A program made the position numbers and the translations under genes. From positions 2,105-66,104 of the forward strand of contig DATAQC010000047.1 in NCBI GenBank assembly GCA_036264885.1: a stretch of 64,000 nucleotides of DNA, in the 5' to 3' direction. Under the pieces are notes generated by a model that saw nothing but the letters and a program-made list of their open reading frames with translations, was not told the origin of the DNA and made no database searches. Within the stretch, counting starts at the first letter, position 1; every line of letters starts with the position of its first letter. This document shows, piece by piece, positions 48,499 to 54,179 of this stretch. The stretch is from Acidimicrobiales bacterium (GTDB lineage Bacteria; Actinomycetota; Acidimicrobiia; Acidimicrobiales; AC-14).

Positions 48499-48966
48499 TC
48501 AGCTGTTGGTCTTGGCCAACAGGAAGCCGCGGGCGCGCTCGGCCCGGCGGTAACGGTGGACGAGAGCCCAGAAGGCGGGCCCGTGGCGGGGCTCGACGAG
48601 GTGGGCCAGCTCGTGGACGAGGACGTAGTCGACCACCCAGGCGGGAAACCCGGCCAGGCGGGAGGACACCCGGATAACCCCGTCGTCGGGCGAGCACGAT
48701 GCCCAGCGCGAGTGCTGGTTGTCGACCCAGCGGACAGCGCCGGGGCTGGGCAGGCGGTAGCGGGCAGCCAGGAGCCTGGCCCGGGCGTCGAGGTCGGTGG
48801 CCTCGGTGGCCTTGCGACGGTCGAGACGGCCGAGCATCTCGGCCACCCAGCGCTCCTCGTCCTCCCGGCTCATGGCCGCCGGGATCCAGACCCGGACGAC
48901 ACCGTCGGTCTCCGAGGCCTGTACGGTCTTGCGCCGGCGCGGGCTGCGTATGACCTCGACCCGCAC
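48499..48966 (-). CDS. YgjP/DUF45-like (M48-type) zinc metallopeptidase-fold protein
   Basis: Contains VEVIRSPRRRKTV.A and the HELAHL zinc motif. I chose the GTG start at 48966 because the rest of the 405-aa track ORF is antisense to the MaoC gene. Confidence 0.65.
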   Translation of the reverse strand: MRVEVIRSPRRRKTVQASETDGVVRVWIPAAMSREDEERWVAEMLGRLDRRKATEATDLDARARLLAARYRLPSPGAVRWVDNQHSRWASCSPDDGVIRVSSRLAGFPAWVVDYVLVHELAHLVEPRHGPAFWALVHRYRRAERARGFLLAKTNS

Positions 48967-49077
48967 GGTGTGCGACGCTAGCCGCAGGCCATCCCGCTCA
49001 GAGGGCTGCTCGGGCCTTGGGCTCCAAGCACGCTCGTCCACGCCGTAGCGGCCGATCGCCGACACAAGGAGCAGTCC

Positions 49078-49932
49078 GTGGGGCTCGACATCGCCAAACT
49101 CGGGGCCCGGTACGGGCCGGACAGGGGTCTCGTCGACCCCGAGCGGGCTCTGGCCTACGCGGCCGCCACCAACGACCCAGGCGCCGGGTACCGGCCCGAC
49201 GGGTTGGTGCCGCCCCTGTACGCCGTGGTCCCCACCTGGGACACCACCATGGCCGCCGTGCACGACGTGGTGCCCGGCGACGCCATGGGCATGCTCGTGC
49301 ACCTGTCCCAGGACATGCGCTTCTTCCGGCCCCTCACCGCCGGCCAGGCCCTGGTGACCGAAGCCGAGATCTGTGGCATCCGCAGCCGTCGATCGGGTGC
49401 ATCTCTGCTGGTGGTCGTCACCAGCGTCGACGAGGCAGGCGATCCGGTGCTGCGCCAGTACGCCACCATGTTCATCCGGGGACTGGGAGGCGGTGAGAGC
49501 GGAGGAGACGAACCTCCCGACCACAGCGTTGCCAACGGGGCCCGTGGTCTCCTCGTGGCGGAACGCACGGTGCGCCTCGACGACGACCAGACGCTGCGTT
49601 ACGCCGAGGCCTCGGGCGACACCAACCGTATTCATGTCGACGAGACCTTCGCCAAGGAGATGGGGCTTCCGGGCATCATCGTCCACGGCATGTGCACCAT
49701 GGCGTTCTGTGGGCACGCGGTCATCGGCGAGACCGCCGGGGGAGACCCGGCGCTGCTGCGCCGCCTGGCCGTGCGCTTCTCGCGCCCCGTCCTGCCCGGG
49801 TCGGACCTGGTGACGTCGGTCTTCGCCGCCGGAGAGTCGTCCGACCGGCGCTGTTTCGTCTTCGAGGCCCGAAGCCGGGGGGAGGTCGTGATCAAAGACG
49901 GATGGGCGGAGATCGGGCCTCCGCCGGCCTAG
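49078..49932 (+). CDS. MaoC-family double hot-dog dehydratase
   Basis: 284 aa. The C-terminal half has YAEASGD.N.IH.D...A...G.PG.I.HGM. The N-terminal half is a degenerate hot-dog fold. Confidence 0.75.
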   Translation: MGLDIAKLGARYGPDRGLVDPERALAYAAATNDPGAGYRPDGLVPPLYAVVPTWDTTMAAVHDVVPGDAMGMLVHLSQDMRFFRPLTAGQALVTEAEICGIRSRRSGASLLVVVTSVDEAGDPVLRQYATMFIRGLGGGESGGDEPPDHSVANGARGLLVAERTVRLDDDQTLRYAEASGDTNRIHVDETFAKEMGLPGIIVHGMCTMAFCGHAVIGETAGGDPALLRRLAVRFSRPVLPGSDLVTSVFAAGESSDRRCFVFEARSRGEVVIKDGWAEIGPPPA

Positions 49933-49934
49933 CC

Positions 49935-51323
49935 ATGCCGAGCCTGCGACTGTTCGCGGCGGCGCGCGAGGCCGCCGGTGTGGCTCGGGCCGACTTCGAG
50001 GGGACGACCGTCGCCGAGATGCTCCAGGCCGCCGAGGCCTCCTTCGGCGAGCGGTTCAGTGCCGTGTTGCGGCAGTCCCGGGTGTGGGTGAACGGCGAGC
50101 CGGCGACGGCCGAGACGGCCGTCACGGGCCACGACGTGGTGGCCGTCCTCCCCCCGGTCTCGGGTGGCGCCGGCGAGGTGGCGGCCACCTCGACCCCGGT
50201 TCGTCCCCGTCCCGCCCGTCCCCTCCCTACCCGCCTCGCACCCACCGCCCCCCGGCGCACCGCCGCCCCCGCCGGACCCGCGCCCACGGCCGGCCCCCAG
50301 CCCACGGCCGGCCCCCAGCCCACGGCCGGCCCCAGCCCCACCGCCGCTCCTGCCCGGCGTCCCGTGGCCCCCGAGACCGCGCCGGCGGTGCGCGCGCCCG
50401 GGCCCGTTCCGAGGGATCAGGCCCCGACCACGACCAGATCCGGGCCGGCGCTCCCGTCGAAGGCGACGGCCGGGGCGGCCGGCAGAACTCCGGCGGTGCC
50501 GGCCGCCACCAGCCCGGCGGCAGCGGCGACGGCCACGACGGGGCTGGCGGCGTCCGACGAGTGGTGGGAGCCGCTGGCCCGGCTCGGGGTGGTCTACGAC
50601 AACAGCCGTCCGCACGGGAGGATCGGCCTGGCCTGGGCGGTGGTGACGGTGGGCGCCACCATCGCCGGCCCGACCTGGATCGCCGCCTGGTTGGCGGTGA
50701 GCGCCTTCGTCGGCGCCTCCCAGGCCGCCGGGACCCGCCGGGCCCTCGACGTGGCCCCACCACCGTGGCTGGCGGCGGTGACCTCGTTGGCGCCGCCGGT
50801 GGCGGCAATGTTCGGCGGGCGCTACGCCGTGGCCGTCATCGCCACCGGCCTGGGGCTGGCCATCGTCGTCCGGGTGTTCGTCAACCACAAGGGCACCGCC
50901 GAGAACCTCGCCCTGGCCCTGGTCATCGGGATGGCCACCGGCTCGGCCGCCGCCGCCGTGGCCCTCACCAGAGACGTCAACATCGCCGCCGCCGTCTACC
51001 TCCTCGCCTGCGCGTGCATCTACGATGCCGGGGCCTATCTCGTCGGGACCGGGGCCTCGGCCGCCTGGGAGGGACCGGTGGCGGGGGTGGTGGCCCTCAT
51101 CCCCGTGACGATCCTGGCCGCCGTCGTGCTCGTCCCGCCCTTCCCAGGCGGCACGCCGTTGGCCCTGGGGCTGCTGGCCGCCGTCCTCGCCCCCCTGGGC
51201 CCGCTGGCCGGCACCGCCCTGCTCGGCCGCCGCGACGCCGACGCCCCCGGCCTCCGACGTCTCGACTCGCTGATCTTCCTCGCCCCCGCATGGGCCTGGC
51301 TGATCACCACGATCCTGCGCTGA
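49935..51323 (+). CDS. Fusion protein: MoaD/ThiS-like ubiquitin-fold domain, Pro-rich repeat linker, degenerate CdsA-like membrane domain
   Basis: The N-terminus is LRLFAAAREAAG....F.G.TV.E.L.......G..F......SRVWVNGEPA......GH.VVAVLPPVSGG. The ORF then continues without a stop. The linker carries an 18-bp x ~2.9 repeat (PTAGPQ). The C-terminus has YDAGAYLVGTGASAAWEGP and RRLDSLIF, which resemble CDP-diglyceride synthase motifs but lack the K-D and HGG residues. Confidence 0.6.
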   Translation: MPSLRLFAAAREAAGVARADFEGTTVAEMLQAAEASFGERFSAVLRQSRVWVNGEPATAETAVTGHDVVAVLPPVSGGAGEVAATSTPVRPRPARPLPTRLAPTAPRRTAAPAGPAPTAGPQPTAGPQPTAGPSPTAAPARRPVAPETAPAVRAPGPVPRDQAPTTTRSGPALPSKATAGAAGRTPAVPAATSPAAAATATTGLAASDEWWEPLARLGVVYDNSRPHGRIGLAWAVVTVGATIAGPTWIAAWLAVSAFVGASQAAGTRRALDVAPPPWLAAVTSLAPPVAAMFGGRYAVAVIATGLGLAIVVRVFVNHKGTAENLALALVIGMATGSAAAAVALTRDVNIAAAVYLLACACIYDAGAYLVGTGASAAWEGPVAGVVALIPVTILAAVVLVPPFPGGTPLALGLLAAVLAPLGPLAGTALLGRRDADAPGLRRLDSLIFLAPAWAWLITTILR

Positions 51324-51364
51324 CGACCAGTCGGCTGACGACCGGTCGGCTGACGACCAGTCGG
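51320..51364. repeat. 15-bp direct repeat x3 (CTGACGACCRGTCGG)
   Basis: Three head-to-tail units lie at 51320-51334, 51335-51349 and 51350-51364. The first overlaps the stop codon of the fusion gene. The array sits in the gap before convergent sodN. Confidence 0.85.
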
Positions 51365-51380
51365 CCCGGGTGCTGCGCTG

Positions 51381-51800
51381 CTAGGCCTTCTTCGTCTCCC
51401 AGAAGATGGTGTCGATCTGGCCGATGAGGTCGAGGAGCTGGTCACCGCTCGCCGGGTCCTCCGACTTCTTGGTCGCGCCGGCCGCCTTGGTGGCGTCCCA
51501 GAACAGCTGGTGCAGCTGCGGGTACTTCTCGACGTGCTCGGGCTTGAAGTAGTCGGTCCAGAGCACCCAGAGGTGGTGCTTCACCAGGTCGGCGCGCTCC
51601 TCTTTGATCTGCACGGCGCGCTGGCGGAAGACCTCGTCGTCGGAGGCCTGGAACTTCTCCTGGCACCCCTTGACCGATTGGGCCTCGATACGGGCCTGGG
51701 CCGGGTCGTAGACCCCACAGGGGAGATCGCAGTGGGCGTGCACCCGTTCGGGCGGACGGATCCGGTCGACGAGGGCGGTGATGCCGGTGAGAATGGGCAT
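51381..51800 (-). CDS. sodN: Nickel-containing superoxide dismutase precursor
   Basis: The Ni-hook HCDLPCGVYDP follows a 22-aa propeptide ending in Ala. The product is 139 aa. I trimmed it from the 276-aa track ORF. Confidence 0.92.
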   Translation of the reverse strand: MPILTGITALVDRIRPPERVHAHCDLPCGVYDPAQARIEAQSVKGCQEKFQASDDEVFRQRAVQIKEERADLVKHHLWVLWTDYFKPEHVEKYPQLHQLFWDATKAAGATKKSEDPASGDQLLDLIGQIDTIFWETKKA

Positions 51801-51860
51801 GCCTGATGCTCCTCCGCTTCGATTGTTGATGCCCCAGAACACTACCCAGTCCCCCGAAGG

Positions 51861-52265
51861 GTGACGGCAACGCGGCGATCGTGGGCCTTCGCGGTTCTCG
51901 CCGGCGGGGCCTGGGCGGCGCTCCGGGTGGGCCGGGTCAGGCGGGTCGAGGTGGTGGGCGACAGCATGCGTCCCACGCTGGAGCCCGGCGACCGCCTGGT
52001 GTTGAGCCGGGGGCGCCGGCCTCGGGTGGGCGAGCTGGTGGCGGTGGTCGATCCGCGACAACCGGCGCGCACCGTGATCAAGCGTCTGGCCGCCGTCTCC
52101 GCCGCGGGGCTCATCGTCGTGGGCGACAACCCGGCGGCCAGCACCGACAGCCGGGTCTTCGGGCCTGTCGCCCCCGGCGCCGTTCGTGGTCGGGTCGTTT
52201 ACCGCTACCACCCCGTCGACCGGCGTGGCCGGCTGTCCTCACCCGGCCCGACCAGCCGTTGGTAA
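51861..52265 (+). CDS. sodX: Ni-SOD maturation protease (S26 signal-peptidase family)
   Basis: Contains GDSMRPTL and VIKRL...GDN...S.DSR motifs. It is divergent from sodN across a 60-bp gap. Confidence 0.85.
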   Translation: MTATRRSWAFAVLAGGAWAALRVGRVRRVEVVGDSMRPTLEPGDRLVLSRGRRPRVGELVAVVDPRQPARTVIKRLAAVSAAGLIVVGDNPAASTDSRVFGPVAPGAVRGRVVYRYHPVDRRGRLSSPGPTSRW

Positions 52266-52274
52266 CGTGCTGCC

Positions 52275-52775
52275 ATGGGATGGAGGGACGACCTGGACCG
52301 CATCCTGGCGCCCGACTATCTCGGCGACACCGCCACCCGCTCCATCGAGGAGCTCCGTGAGATGGCCGCCCAGTCCCAGGCCGTGGGGGACGACATCTCG
52401 TACCTTCGGCGCCAGGTACAGGGGCGCCTCGACATCGTCCGCTGGGAGCTGGCGCGGCGAGAATCGGGCGAGGGCCGGTCGAGCACCGACGACCTGGTGA
52501 AGAGCCTCAGCGGCGTGCTGGCGGCCAACGTCCACGCCCCCGGCCACCAGCAGATGGTGGATGGCGTCGAGCCCGCCCACCTCGACGAGCTCACCGATGA
52601 GCTCAGCGCCCTCGTGCCCCCGGTGTGGAAGCTGCCCGATCTCGACGACACCGAGCTGCAGGCGCTGGCCGACGGTCTGGCCCGGCACGAGAGCGAGTAC
52701 TCGTCGTTGCGCAGGGAGGTCTTCTCCCGCGCCGATGCCCTCCGGGGCGCAATCACCGCCCAACTCGGCGGCTGA
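52275..52775 (+). CDS. Helical protein with RsiG-like motifs (possible c-di-GMP-binding anti-sigma factor)
   Basis: 166 aa, predicted helical. ISYLRRQVQGRLD fits S-x2-R-x3-Q-x3-D. ESEYSSLRREVFSRAD fits E-x3-S-x2-R-x7-D. I am confident it is a CDS but the functional call is tentative. Confidence 0.4.
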   Translation: MGWRDDLDRILAPDYLGDTATRSIEELREMAAQSQAVGDDISYLRRQVQGRLDIVRWELARRESGEGRSSTDDLVKSLSGVLAANVHAPGHQQMVDGVEPAHLDELTDELSALVPPVWKLPDLDDTELQALADGLARHESEYSSLRREVFSRADALRGAITAQLGG

Positions 52776-52781
52776 GTTACT

Positions 52782-52910
52782 GGCGGCTTCGCCGCCCCGG
52801 GCGGGGCCCCAACCCCGCCCTCCTCCGAAGCGGCGGGGCCCCCACCCCGCCGCCGGCCGTGTTACCGGCGGCTTCGCCGCCCCGGCCGTGTCCCTGGCGG
52901 CTTCGCCGCC
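52782..52910. repeat. Array of three GGCGGCTTCGCCGCC hairpin units plus duplicated GGGGCCCC(A)ACCCCGCC motif
   Basis: The 15-nt self-complementary unit occurs at 52782-52796, 52867-52881 and 52896-52910. The first two sit in a longer shared context, GTTACYGGCGGCTTCGCCGCCCCGG. Confidence 0.8.
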
Positions 52911-52970
52911 ACGGGCGGCGCCCTCCCGGTGGTGAAGGTAGAGGTCCGTCACTGGGTAGGGTTGCACCCC

Positions 52971-54179
52971 GTGCGTCGGCTGGCCGTCATCTCGTTGCAC
53001 ACCTCTCCGCTCGCCCAGCCAGGTGCGGGAGACGGTGGGGGCATGAACGTCTATGTGCGTTCGCTGTCGTCGGCGCTGGCCCGCGCCGGCATCGACTGCG
53101 ACGTGTACACGCGCGCCTGGCGTGGCGGACTGGCCCCGGTGGTTTCGGTGGAGCCCGGGTTCCGGGTGCACCACGTTCCCGCCGGCCCCATGGCCACGGT
53201 GCCCAAGGAGTCGATGCCCGAGCTGGTGCCGGAGTTCACCAAAGGCGTCCTGGCCGCCGTCGCCGCCCACGGTTCGGCCGATCTCATCCACGCCAACTAC
53301 TGGCTGTCGGGCGTGGCCGGCCACGCCCTCAAGCACGAGCTGGGCCTCCCGCTCGTCAGCACCTTCCACACCCTGGCGAGGGTCAAGGCCCAGGTCATGG
53401 CGGACAAGGGCGAGAGCCGGGGGCGGGCCGAGGCCGAGGTGGTCGGGTGCTCGGATGCCATCCTGGCCTCCTCCGACGACGAACGGGCCCAGCTCGAGCG
53501 CCTCTACGACGCGCCGCCGGGGCGGGTGGAGATCGTGCCACCCGGTGTCGACCACGAGCGGTTCGCCCCCGGCGACCGGGCCCGAGCGAGGTCCGACCTC
53601 GGGCTCGGTGATGGCCCGGTGCTGCTGTTCGTGGGCCGGATCCAGCCCCTCAAGGGTGTCGATGTGGCCATCGAGACGGTCGCCCGGCTGCATGGCGATG
53701 TCACCCTCGTCATCGTCGGCGGCCCCTCGGGGCCCGACGGCCAGAGTGAGCGTCGTCGCCTCGATGGTCTCGTCGCCCAGCTCGGCGTCGAGTCGCGCGT
53801 CCGCTTCGTCGAACCCCAGCCCCATGCCCAGCTGGCGGCGTGGTACCGCGCTGCGGACGTCTGCCTGGTCCCCAGCCGGTCCGAGTCGTTCGGTTTGGTG
53901 GCCTTGGAGGCGGCGGCCTGCGGGACGCCGGTGGTGGCCGCCGCCGTCGGGGGACTGCCCACACTGGTCGTCCACGGTGTGACCGGGTACCTCGTCGAGG
54001 GCGGCGACTCCCGAGGTTTCGCGGCGCGGGTGGGCGAGGTGCTCGGCGAGCCGGCGCGTGCCGCCCGCATGGGCCAGGCCGCCTCCCTGGGAGCCCGTCG
54101 CTACAGCTGGTCGATCACCGCGGCGCGCCTCCGGCGCCTGTATGCGGATCTGACCGCCCGCGACCTGGTGGAGTGTTAG
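52971..54179 (+). CDS. mshA: D-inositol-3-phosphate glycosyltransferase (mycothiol biosynthesis)
   Basis: Contains the RRLAVISLHTSPL.QPG.GD.GGMNVYV signature and a GT4 C-terminal E-x7-E region. I preferred the GTG start at 52971; the track start at 52929 is possible. Confidence 0.85.
   Translation: MRRLAVISLHTSPLAQPGAGDGGGMNVYVRSLSSALARAGIDCDVYTRAWRGGLAPVVSVEPGFRVHHVPAGPMATVPKESMPELVPEFTKGVLAAVAAHGSADLIHANYWLSGVAGHALKHELGLPLVSTFHTLARVKAQVMADKGESRGRAEAEVVGCSDAILASSDDERAQLERLYDAPPGRVEIVPPGVDHERFAPGDRARARSDLGLGDGPVLLFVGRIQPLKGVDVAIETVARLHGDVTLVIVGGPSGPDGQSERRRLDGLVAQLGVESRVRFVEPQPHAQLAAWYRAADVCLVPSRSESFGLVALEAAACGTPVVAAAVGGLPTLVVHGVTGYLVEGGDSRGFAARVGEVLGEPARAARMGQAASLGARRYSWSITAARLRRLYADLTARDLVEC

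What the first reader, a model, noticed from the sequence alone, without database searches (positions are those of the whole stretch)
49935..51323. MoaD/ThiS-like ubiquitin-fold domain whose Gly-Gly terminus is fused in frame to a Pro-rich repeat linker and a degenerate CdsA-like membrane domain
Residues 1-78 look like a sulfur-carrier or ubiquitin-like protein and end in the canonical ...VAVLPPVSGG. Instead of a stop codon the ORF continues (AGEVAATSTPVRPRP...). It then passes through a ~150-aa Pro/Ala/Thr linker that contains a perfect 18-bp tandem repeat (50283-50335, PTAGPQ x3). The remainder is a ~230-aa polytopic domain. Its DAGAYLVGTGASAAWEGP and RRLDSLIF segments resemble CDP-diglyceride synthase motifs but lack the conserved K-D and HGG catalytic residues. 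Sulfur carriers need a free GG carboxylate. Either the protein is proteolytically processed at GG, as in eukaryotic ubiquitin precursors or JAMM-dependent bacterial systems, or the beta-grasp domain has been co-opted as a non-conjugating module on a membrane protein. The start codon lies 2 nt after the stop of a MaoC dehydratase gene, which suggests a lipid-related operon.
Basis: partly seen in the sequence, partly recalled or inferred. Interest (0 to 1): 0.6.

Follow-up and report, generated by a model that had tools for sequence, protein, structure and literature searches.

The report
MoaD fused to CdsA-like membrane protein
The small sulfur-carrier protein MoaD, needed to make the molybdenum cofactor, is encoded here as one chain with the membrane protein of the next gene; the fusion is real and kept across a whole clade of Acidimicrobiia, and MoaD most likely has to be cut free after its Gly-Gly, as in known MoaD-MoaE fusions.

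Summary
ORF 49935-51323 encodes a MoaD-type beta-grasp domain (residues 1-78) that ends in ...PPVSGG. No stop follows. A disordered Pro-rich linker of about 130 aa and a 250-aa polytopic domain come next.

- **Not an artefact.** 113 of 121 homologues carry both domains, and all 113 keep PPVSGG.
- **Membrane domain.** It has the CdsA fold, but four of the six residues shown to be essential in TmCdsA are replaced. It is not a CDP-diglyceride synthase. A canonical cdsA lies elsewhere in the genome.
- **N-domain.** It is the class-wide moaD orthologue. It is single-copy and is present or absent together with moaE. In three near-complete relatives it is the only ThiS-family gene. In two others it sits in a moeA-moaD-moaB-moaE cluster.
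- **Origin of the fusion.** In most Acidimicrobiia, moaD and the membrane gene are separate but overlap at ATGA/GTGA. This leaves 1-2 residues after GG. The window's clade lost the stop once.

Best reading, about 0.6: this is a MoaD precursor cleaved after GG, probably by a JAMM peptidase. JAMM was found in 14 of 15 relatives but not in this 73%-complete MAG. Cleavage is inferred, not shown.

This is a new variant of the MoaX-type fusion. The scan met the same fusion before on other DNA (e1-1211767, e1-1168015).

The parts
49078..49932 (+). MaoC-like double hot-dog dehydratase gene. Its stop lies 2 nt before the fusion gene's ATG. It is a syntenic neighbour, not shown to be functionally linked.
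   Evidence: Pfam MaoC_dehydratas 92 bits, FAS1_DH_region and MFE-2_hydrat-2_N. It sits upstream of moaD in many, but not all, related loci.
49935..50168 (+). MoaD domain (residues 1-78), ending VAVLPPVSGG. G77-G78 are at 50163-50168.
   Evidence: - Pfam ThiS: 42.8 bits, with the profile end at G78.
- NCBIfam: best hit is moaD TIGR01682, 48.3 bits, below its 66 cut-off.
- AF2: pLDDT 91-97.
- Foldseek: mycobacterial MoaD2 6JBZ_B, target-normalised TM 0.79, and E. coli MoaD 1FM0_D, 0.75.
- Orthologue profile A5: single copy in about 108 of the 150 sampled Acidimicrobiia genomes, besides the window's own.
50169..50561 (+). Pro/Ala/Thr/Arg-rich linker (residues 79-209), disordered. Length and sequence are not conserved.
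   Evidence: pLDDT is below 50 for residues 77-208. Linkers in 113 homologues span 29-231 aa, median 51, and do not align.
50269..50346 (+). Imperfect 18-bp tandem array inside the linker. The core at 50283-50336 reads PTAGPQ, PTAGPQ, PTAGPS.
   Evidence: TRF: period 18, 4.3 copies, 85% matches. Sequence read directly.
50562..51320 (+). Polytopic CdsA-fold membrane domain (residues 210-462) with a remodelled active site. The stop codon is at 51321-51323.
   Evidence: - AF2 on a 69-sequence alignment: pLDDT 94.7, pTM 0.91.
- Foldseek: the only good matches are TmCdsA 4Q2E/4Q2G, TM 0.60-0.66 over 259-273 columns. The next hit has TM 0.23.
- hhalign to the genome's own CdsA: E 2.6e-5.
- Family motifs in the 121 homologues: WEGP in 121, PPF and RRLDS in 120, the YDAGAY-type motif in 119, GTGA[SA] in 117, RPHGR in 116.
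51024..51026 (+). Asp364, equivalent to TmCdsA Asp144. One of only two essential CdsA residues retained.
   Evidence: hhalign. Residue roles from PMC4083444. Numbering checked by the spacing in the 4Q2G alignment.
51201..51203 (+). Pro423 at the position of the metal-binding Asp219 of TmCdsA. Invariant in the fused clade.
51255..51266 (+). R441-R442-L443-D444 in place of CdsA's D246-R-x-D249. Asp246 is replaced by Arg and Asp249 is kept. The HGG that precedes it in CdsA is absent.

Best explanation
- **What it is.** The gene encodes a precursor. Its first 78 residues are the organism's MoaD, the small sulfur-carrier subunit of molybdopterin synthase. The rest is an unrelated membrane protein with the CdsA fold.
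- **How it arose (shown by comparison).** In most Acidimicrobiia the two are neighbouring genes. The moaD stop overlaps the membrane gene's start codon (ATGA, GTGA or TGATG). In the window's clade that stop was lost once, and the fused state has been kept since.
- **How it works (inferred).** MoaD needs a free Gly-Gly carboxylate to be adenylated and thiocarboxylated by MoeZ/MoeB and to insert into MoaE. So the chain must be cut after G78, most likely by a JAMM/MPN+ peptidase. That releases soluble MoaD in the cytoplasm and leaves the membrane protein with a Pro-rich N-terminal tail.
- **The membrane domain.** It is not a CDP-diglyceride synthase. Its own function is unknown.
For: **Shown**
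- The fusion is conserved: 113 of 121 homologues have both domains and all 113 keep PPVSGG.
- On the membrane-domain tree, 18 fused rows (with one contig-truncated row) form one clade (SH-aLRT 99). L085 is a second, independent fusion.
- In a 65-locus sample of Acidimicrobiia, moaD lies directly upstream of the membrane gene: 18 fused, 11 ending GG-stop, 36 with a tail after GG (mostly 1-2 residues; the long tails in L034 and L048 look like assembly frameshifts). The stop and start codons overlap.
- The N-domain is the real MoaD.
  - Its fold matches MoaD2 and E. coli MoaD.
  - Its best NCBIfam hit is moaD.
  - The orthologue and moaE were both found in most sampled families and neither in six (f4 0/5, f15 0/26, f10, f18, f22, f25), with a few single-genome exceptions.
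  - In G012, G062 and G139 (95-99% complete) the fused copy is the only PF02597 hit in the genome, although moaE is present.
  - In L105 and L106 the orthologue is in frame with MoaB. In L106 it lies between moeA and moaE.
- The window's genome has moaE, moeA, moaB and MoeZ.
- Its other two ThiS-family genes are assigned elsewhere. One is ThiS, next to a downstream ORF I read as thiamine-phosphate synthase (ThiE) by eye. The other is a SAMP1-like carrier next to a ThrC-like gene, probably MetO/MetM.
- JAMM (PF14464) was found in 14 of 15 relatives examined. In G012, G028 and G062 it is adjacent to MoeZ. G012 and G062 have no other ThiS-family protein it could act on.

**Precedent**
- M. tuberculosis MoaX must be cleaved between Gly82 and Ser83 to be active (PMC4326299).
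- D. radiodurans JAMM cleaves its MoaD-MoaE fusion. Archaeal JAMMs cut linear fusions whatever follows the Ubl (PMC8832034).
Against: - No JAMM gene was found in the window's own genome (PF14464; tblastn). The MAG is only 73% complete.
- Cleavage is not demonstrated for any member.
- The MoaD domain scores below NCBIfam's moaD equivalog cut-off (48 against 66 bits).
- In the window's genome a second GG carrier (SAMP1-like, contig C57) could in principle serve MoaE.
- The tight, class-wide linkage and the repeated fusion of moaD with this membrane gene hint at a functional link. The 'neutral fusion plus processing' model does not explain it.
Confidence: 0.6

Rival explanations
1. The chain is not cleaved. 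The MoaD-like beta-grasp has been co-opted as a permanent cytoplasmic module (adaptor or regulatory) of the membrane protein, as the YukD-like beta-grasp is in actinobacterial EccD. Another carrier supplies MoaE.
For: - No JAMM was found in this MAG.
- A second GG carrier exists on contig C57.
- Beta-grasp domains fused to polytopic membrane domains without conjugation are known: YukD/EccD, Iyer et al. 2006, PMC1779556.
- The long flexible linker would suit a tethered module.
Against: - PPVSGG is invariant in 113 of 113 fused proteins and also in the other-order fusions. That would not be expected if the GG had lost its chemistry.
- In G012, G062 and G139 the fused copy is the only ThiS-family gene, although moaE is present.
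- The domain is orthologous to split copies that end in GG-stop, and to copies inside moa clusters.
Confidence: 0.2
2. MoaD and the CdsA-fold protein work together, so the fusion is a Rosetta-stone signal. Examples:
- The membrane protein docks or regulates MoaD or MPT synthase at the membrane.
- It acts on a phosphorylated Moco intermediate.
- It uses the activated Gly carboxylate of the Ubl on a lipid, an Atg8-like lipidation.
For: - The two genes are translationally coupled neighbours across the class.
- They fused at least twice independently.
- In other orders MoaD is fused to a very divergent domain that may be homologous (hhalign probability 64%, E 6.5e-5).
- Strong matches to the membrane gene came only from genomes that also have the MoaD orthologue, with the caveat that the first-look filter misses cases.
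- CdsA chemistry, nucleotidyl transfer to a phosphate oxygen, resembles the MobA/MocA and E1 reactions (my own reasoning).
Against: - The catalytic metal site of CdsA is destroyed.
- The membrane gene occurs without an adjacent moaD in L016, L018, L030 and L074.
- moaD occurs without the membrane gene in L101-L104 and throughout family f3.
- MoaD is also fused to MoaB elsewhere, so fusion to whatever lies downstream seems to be tolerated in general.
Confidence: 0.15
3. Assembly or sequencing error: a missed stop or a frameshift after GG joins two ordinary genes.
For: The template is high-GC and repeat-rich. In two long-read MAGs of the same clade (L034, L048) the reading frame breaks between the MoaD and membrane parts, which looks like assembly frameshifts. 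Reads could not be examined.
Against: The same in-frame architecture appears in 113 independent database proteins from many samples and assemblers, with linkers of 29-231 aa that all stay in frame. The fused rows form a deep clade.
Confidence: 0.02

Closest known systems
MoaX of Mycobacterium tuberculosis and DR2607 of Deinococcus radiodurans (fused MoaD-MoaE molybdopterin synthases)
   Same: An N-terminal MoaD with an internal Gly-Gly is followed in frame by another protein. Activity requires cleavage exactly after GG (PMC4326299). In Deinococcus an unlinked JAMM peptidase does the cutting (PMC8832034).
   Different: - The partner here is not MoaE. It is a polytopic membrane protein with no known role in Moco synthesis.
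- A long disordered Pro-rich linker separates the two.
- Cleavage is untested.
- No JAMM was found in this incomplete genome.
CDP-diglyceride synthase CdsA (TmCdsA, PDB 4Q2E/4Q2G; Pfam PF01148)
   Same: The whole-domain fold matches (TM 0.60-0.66). The D-x-x-A-Y motif (Asp144) and the final Asp of D-R-x-D-S (Asp249) are kept.
   Different: - Lys167, Asp219, Lys226 and Asp246 are replaced by Ser/Ala, Pro, Leu and Arg.
- The HGG is lost, and 11 residues are deleted after GTGAS.
- The Pfam score is below threshold.
- A canonical cdsA next to dxr exists elsewhere in the genome.
Ubiquitin-ribosomal protein fusions of eukaryotes (for example UBA52, RPS27A) and polyubiquitin precursors
   Same: A beta-grasp protein ending in GG is translated as the N-terminal part of an unrelated protein and released by a peptidase (established knowledge).
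   Different: Here the carrier is a bacterial sulfur carrier rather than a protein modifier, the partner is a membrane protein, and the processing enzyme is unknown.
EccD of actinobacterial ESX/type VII secretion (YukD-like beta-grasp fused to a multi-pass membrane domain)
   Same: An N-terminal ubiquitin-like beta-grasp sits on a polytopic membrane protein in Actinomycetota (PMC1779556). This is the model for the uncleaved rival.
   Different: YukD has no conserved GG and no sulfur-carrier chemistry. The window's domain is an orthologue of MoaD with an invariant GG.

Membership tests
MoaD (molybdopterin synthase small subunit; ThiS/MoaD beta-grasp family) | Ubiquitin-like beta-grasp fold | tested here: met
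   AF2 pLDDT 91-97 for residues 1-70. Foldseek matches 6JBZ_B (target-normalised TM 0.79), 1FM0_D (0.75) and 5MPO_A (0.77).
MoaD (molybdopterin synthase small subunit; ThiS/MoaD beta-grasp family) | Sequence-profile membership | tested here: inconclusive
   Pfam ThiS PF02597 is above its cut-off (42.8 against 22.5). NCBIfam moaD TIGR01682 is the best hit but below its equivalog cut-off (48.3 against 66.15).
MoaD (molybdopterin synthase small subunit; ThiS/MoaD beta-grasp family) | Free C-terminal Gly-Gly carboxylate | tested here: not met
   As encoded, GG (residues 77-78) is internal and 384 residues follow. The feature would be met only after cleavage, which is inferred.
MoaD (molybdopterin synthase small subunit; ThiS/MoaD beta-grasp family) | Partner genes moaE and an E1 (MoeB/MoeZ) in the genome, and co-occurrence with moaE across relatives | tested here: met
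   - Own genome: moaE, MoeZ, moeA and moaB.
- In the class sample, both genes were found or both not found family by family, with a few single-genome exceptions.
- The orthologue lies inside a moeA-moaD-moaB-moaE cluster in L106.
MoaD (molybdopterin synthase small subunit; ThiS/MoaD beta-grasp family) | Thiocarboxylate formation and sulfur transfer to cPMP | not testable with these tools
   Needs biochemistry or genetic complementation.
CdsA / CTP_transf_1 (CDP-diglyceride synthase) | Nine-helix CdsA fold | tested here: met
   Foldseek 4Q2E_A/B and 4Q2G_B: TM 0.60-0.66, probability 1.00. The next hit has TM 0.23. The query model has pLDDT 94.7.
CdsA / CTP_transf_1 (CDP-diglyceride synthase) | Pfam PF01148 gathering score | tested here: not met
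   19.4 bits against a cut-off of 24. The genome's canonical CdsA scores 185 bits.
CdsA / CTP_transf_1 (CDP-diglyceride synthase) | Asp219-Asp249 metal dyad plus the essential Asp144, Lys167, Lys226 and Asp246 (PMC4083444) | tested here: not met
   Only the Asp144 and Asp249 equivalents are kept. Asp219 becomes Pro423, Lys167 becomes Ser/Ala, Lys226 becomes Leu, Asp246 becomes Arg441, and HGG is lost.
MoaX-type cleaved MoaD fusion precursor | N-terminal MoaD with an internal GG followed in frame by another protein | tested here: met
MoaX-type cleaved MoaD fusion precursor | The fusion partner is MoaE | tested here: not met
   The partner is a CdsA-fold membrane domain. moaE is a separate gene on contig C69.
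MoaX-type cleaved MoaD fusion precursor | Post-translational cleavage after GG | not testable with these tools
   Inferred from comparative genomics only.
JAMM/MPN+-dependent Ubl processing system | A JAMM (Prok-JAB) peptidase gene in the same genome | tested here: inconclusive
   Not found in the own MAG, which is 73% complete. Found in 14 of 15 relatives examined, and next to MoeZ in three of them.

The most novel reading that the evidence does not exclude
The pairing is functional rather than incidental: Acidimicrobiia use a CdsA-fold membrane protein together with a MoaD-type GG carrier. One version is that the fused or cleaved carrier is held or handled at the membrane for a step of molybdoenzyme maturation. 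The boldest version is that the carrier's activated C-terminal glycine is joined to a lipid head group, a bacterial analogue of Atg8 lipidation.
Probability: 0.1. Interest if true: 0.85.

Novelty: new variant of a known kind. Interest (0 to 1): 0.45.

Why it matters
- **MoaD as a precursor.** In a whole bacterial class the Moco sulfur carrier is usually made as a precursor. What follows the GG is 1-2 residues, a MoaB domain or a complete membrane protein. This implies a general 'cut after GG' activity in these bacteria, like ubiquitin-precursor processing. It also gives a natural set of substrates for studying bacterial JAMM specificity.
- **Annotation.** These proteins are labelled 'MoaD/ThiS family protein', 'molybdopterin synthase sulfur carrier subunit' or 'phosphatidate cytidylyltransferase'. 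None of these names describes the whole chain, and the last one is probably wrong as a function.
- **An uncharacterised family.** The CdsA-fold domain is widespread in Acidimicrobiia. Its metal site is replaced by an Arg-Arg-x-Asp motif, and its function is open.
- **The linkage.** If the moaD linkage turns out to be functional, it would connect a ubiquitin-like carrier to membrane lipid-enzyme architecture.

Tried and rejected
- **Frameshift or assembly artefact.** Rejected on conservation. The short 'membrane-only' hits lack the N-domain; the one inspected (P0012) is open to the contig end, so they look like contig-end truncations rather than split genes.
- **Sole or alternative CDP-DAG synthase.** Rejected. 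A canonical cdsA next to dxr is present and the catalytic residues are lost.
- **YgjP-like metallopeptidase (48499-49029, minus strand) as the processing protease.** It is syntenic in about 32 loci. Most of these are the split type, and it is absent from the other fused-clade loci, so nothing links it to the fusion.
- **MaoC link to a 'lipid operon'.** MaoC is missing from many loci that keep the moaD and membrane pair. No support.
- **First AF2 model of the whole chain.** It gave a poor membrane domain and no CdsA match. Solved with a deeper alignment of the domain alone.
- **The search for related loci with the 51-sequence alignment.** It failed for lack of a conserved stretch. A 10-sequence subset worked.
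- **Class-wide search for the membrane domain.** Limited by the first-look filter, with only 16 candidates scored per genome. Its negatives are unreliable and were checked by fetching loci.
Full report
**1. What is in the sequence**

The + strand ORF 49935-51323 encodes 462 residues. Its ATG follows the TAG of an upstream MaoC-type double hot-dog dehydratase gene (49078-49932) by two bases.

Residues 5-78 match Pfam ThiS/MoaD (PF02597, E 8e-11, above the curated cut-off). The profile ends exactly on G78 of ...VAVLPPVSGG. The next codon is GCC, not a stop.

Residues 79 to about 209 are Pro/Ala/Thr/Arg-rich and predicted disordered. They contain an imperfect 18-bp tandem array that reads PTAGPQ, PTAGPQ, PTAGPS.

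Residues 210-462 are a polytopic domain with a sub-threshold match to the CdsA family (PF01148, 19.4 against 24 bits).

**2. The fusion is real**

A search of about 5.8 billion proteins returned 268 hits. Nearly all were proteins of 360-560 aa from Acidimicrobiales MAGs carrying both Pfam domains.

Of the 121 sequences examined, 113 have both domains. All 113 end the first domain with PPVSGG. Linkers range from 29 to 231 aa (median 51) and do not align.

The eight short hits lack the N-domain. The one inspected, P0012, is cut by a contig end: its frame stays open to base 1 of its contig through a 10-residue repeat. A sequencing artefact is therefore excluded as a general explanation.

**3. The membrane domain has the CdsA fold but not the CdsA active site**

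- An AlphaFold model built on 69 homologous domains is confident (pLDDT 94.7, pTM 0.91).
- In the PDB it matches only Thermotoga CdsA (4Q2E/4Q2G) over its whole length, with TM 0.60-0.66. The next hit has TM 0.23.
- A profile alignment to the genome's own canonical CdsA (hhalign E 2.6e-5) was combined with the mutagenesis data for TmCdsA (PMC4083444; numbering checked).
- Only the equivalents of Asp144 (D364) and Asp249 (D444) survive.
- Lys167 becomes Ser/Ala. The metal ligand Asp219 becomes an invariant Pro423. Lys226 becomes Leu. Asp246 becomes Arg441. The HGG is gone, and 11 residues are deleted after GTGAS.
- The family has its own strongly conserved set: RPHGRLGxxW, YDAGAYLVGTGA, WEGP, PPF, APxGP and RRLDS.
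- A normal cdsA, scoring 185 bits and lying next to dxr, sits on another contig.

So this domain belongs to the CdsA fold superfamily but fails the functional membership test. What it does is unknown.

**4. The beta-grasp is the organism's moaD**

- The model of residues 1-70 is confident. It superposes on mycobacterial MoaD2, E. coli MoaD and human MOCS2A.
- The best NCBIfam hit is the moaD equivalog, although below its cut-off.
- A profile of the orthologues (A5) finds one strong copy in about 108 of the 150 sampled Acidimicrobiia genomes (at least 85% complete). moaE is found in 105 of them (106 of 151 counting the window's own genome).
- Family by family, the two are found together or not at all. 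Both are missing from the small-genome family f15 (0 of 26), from f4 (0 of 5), and from f10, f18, f22 and f25. A few single genomes in otherwise positive families lack a moaE hit.
- In three near-complete genomes of other orders (G012, G062, G139) the fused copy is the only ThiS-family hit in the whole genome, yet moaE is present.
- In two genomes where the membrane gene has no moaD in front of it, the orthologue lies in a moa cluster. There it is in frame with a MoaB/Mog domain. In one case it sits between moeA and moaE.
- The window's genome has moaE, moeA, moaB and a rhodanese-ThiF MoeZ.
- Its two other ThiS-family genes are assigned elsewhere. One is ThiS, next to a downstream ORF that I read by eye as thiamine-phosphate synthase (ThiE). 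The other is a SAMP1-like carrier next to a ThrC-like gene. This fits the MetO/MetM homocysteine route described in the GapMind 2026 preprint.

**5. How the fusion arose**

A scan of one genome per species returned 80 loci with the membrane domain. Nearly all are labelled Acidimicrobiia or lower taxa within it; a few carry only a coarser label.

- Wherever upstream DNA is present, moaD sits directly in front on the same strand, with four exceptions.
- Among 65 such loci, 18 are fused, 11 end GG-stop, and 36 carry a tail after GG. The tail is 1-2 residues in all but a few. The long tails in L034 and L048 look like assembly frameshifts.
- In the split loci the moaD stop overlaps or abuts the start codon of the membrane gene (ATGA, GTGA, TTGA, TGATG). 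This explains the short tails. It also means a single-base change can fuse the frames.
- On a tree of the membrane domain, the window and 17 other fused rows (with one contig-truncated row) form one clade (SH-aLRT 99), nested among split forms. One Microthrixaceae locus (L085) is an independent fusion.
- In other orders MoaD is fused, through a very short linker, to a highly divergent 250-aa membrane domain. It may be a distant homologue (hhalign probability 64%).
- In family f3 and some other lineages the membrane gene is absent, and moaD stands alone in the same synteny.

**6. Mechanism**

Established biochemistry requires a free C-terminal glycine on MoaD, both for adenylation and for insertion into MoaE. 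So 54 of the 65 loci sampled encode a MoaD that cannot work as translated.

The simplest account is a processing peptidase that cuts after GG regardless of what follows. JAMM/MPN+ enzymes do exactly this:

- MoaX of M. tuberculosis must be cleaved between Gly82 and Ser83 (PMC4326299).
- The Deinococcus JAMM cleaves its MoaD-MoaE fusion.
- Archaeal JAMMs cleave linear Ubl fusions independently of the partner (PMC8832034).

A Prok-JAB gene was found in 14 of 15 relatives examined. In G012, G028 and G062 it lies next to MoeZ. In G012 and G062 the fused MoaD is the only ThiS-family protein it could act on.

I therefore read the window's gene as a MoaD precursor. Cleavage after G78 would release MoaD and a membrane protein with a Pro-rich tail.

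The steps shown are the architecture, its conservation, the orthology, the co-occurrence with moaE, and the origin by stop loss. The steps inferred are the cleavage itself and the identity of the protease.

Weak points:
- No JAMM was found in this 73%-complete MAG.
- The SAMP1-like carrier on C57 could in principle substitute for MoaD.
- The model does not explain why moaD and this membrane gene are so persistently coupled.

**7. Rivals**

- An uncleaved, co-opted beta-grasp, as in EccD/YukD (PMC1779556), is possible. It fits poorly with the invariant GG and with genomes where the fusion is the only carrier.
- A true functional partnership between MoaD and the CdsA-fold protein remains open at low probability. 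The linkage argues for it. The destroyed active site and the independent occurrence of each gene argue against it.

**8. Novelty**

- MoaD fusions to MoaE, to aldehyde oxidoreductase and to others are catalogued (PMC1779556). I found no description of a fusion to a CdsA-fold membrane protein, nor of the class-wide precursor habit.
- Earlier follow-ups of this scan reached the same reading on other genomes (e1-1211767 and e1-1168015). I saw these only after my own analysis.
- I file this as a new variant of a known kind, of moderate interest.

Noticed in passing
L013-L092 (for example L040:3004-3010, L057:1609-1620, L072:5944-5953): In split loci the moaD stop overlaps or abuts the start of the membrane gene (ATGA, GTGA, TTGA, TGATG). 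Most Acidimicrobiia MoaD proteins therefore carry 1-2 extra residues after GG. Only 11 of the 65 loci sampled end exactly at GG.
   Followed up: yes
L105:1333-2343 and L106:913-2274: The MoaD orthologue is in one open frame with a MoaB/Mog (MoCF_biosynth) domain, so the GG is internal. In L106 it is flanked by moeA and moaE. This is a second kind of MoaD fusion in the same class.
   Followed up: partly
L097:3377-4435, L098:2884-3957(-), L099:2695-4224, L100:2732-3982: In other orders of the class, MoaD (PPVSGG) is fused through about 10 residues to a very divergent 250-aa polytopic domain ending ...PGxLxxxDG. Pfam and the family HMM do not recognise it. Its homology to the window's domain is weak (hhalign probability 64%).
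   Followed up: partly
L107:3970-5512(-), L108:2759-4305(-), L110:2206-4342(+): Rhodanese-ThiF (MoeZ-type E1) and Prok-JAB genes are adjacent or overlapping in G012, G062 and G028. In G012 and G062 the only ThiS-family protein in the genome is the fused MoaD.
   Followed up: partly
window 48499-49029 (-): A YgjP-like (DUF45, HExxH) metallopeptidase gene lies between the alpha/beta-hydrolase and MaoC genes, on the opposite strand. The same placement occurs in about 32 related loci, mostly those with split moaD.
   Followed up: partly
window 51319-51365: Three head-to-tail 15-bp units (GCTGACGACCAGTCG, 93% matches) begin at the stop codon of the fusion gene, in the gap before the convergent sodN.
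   Followed up: no
G000 contig C12 (L001:1486-3255, minus strand): The genome's canonical CdsA ORF is 589 aa. The PF01148 domain covers residues 329-585, preceded by about 300 residues of acidic, Pro-rich, low-complexity sequence. Long disordered cytoplasmic N-terminal tails may be common on membrane proteins here.
   Followed up: no
G000 contig C57 (L003:244-1764): A ThrC-like gene with an N-terminal zinc ribbon is followed, with a 4-nt overlap, by a 91-aa SAMP1-like carrier ending in GG-stop. This matches the MetM/MetO thiocarboxylate route to homocysteine, which needs a Mec-type JAMM. No JAMM was found in this MAG.
   Followed up: partly
L012:1-450: The linker of a close relative consists of at least five tandem copies of QPRSEGRSGP running into the contig end. 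Linkers seem to grow by tandem duplication, and such repeats break assemblies, which produces 'membrane-only' gene calls.
   Followed up: no
L034 and L048: In two long-read MAGs of the fused clade the reading frame breaks between the MoaD and membrane parts (in L048 within the PPVSGG motif itself). These look like assembly frameshifts rather than true split genes.
   Followed up: no
window 51381-54179: The downstream synteny is sodN (Ni-SOD), sodX (S26 peptidase), an RsiG-like protein, and a GT4 glycosyltransferase of the MshA type (the MshA assignment is mine; Pfam shows only GT4 and Glycos_transf_1 domains). It is conserved next to the moaD and membrane pair across the class. sodN and sodX are missing in many families.
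   Followed up: partly
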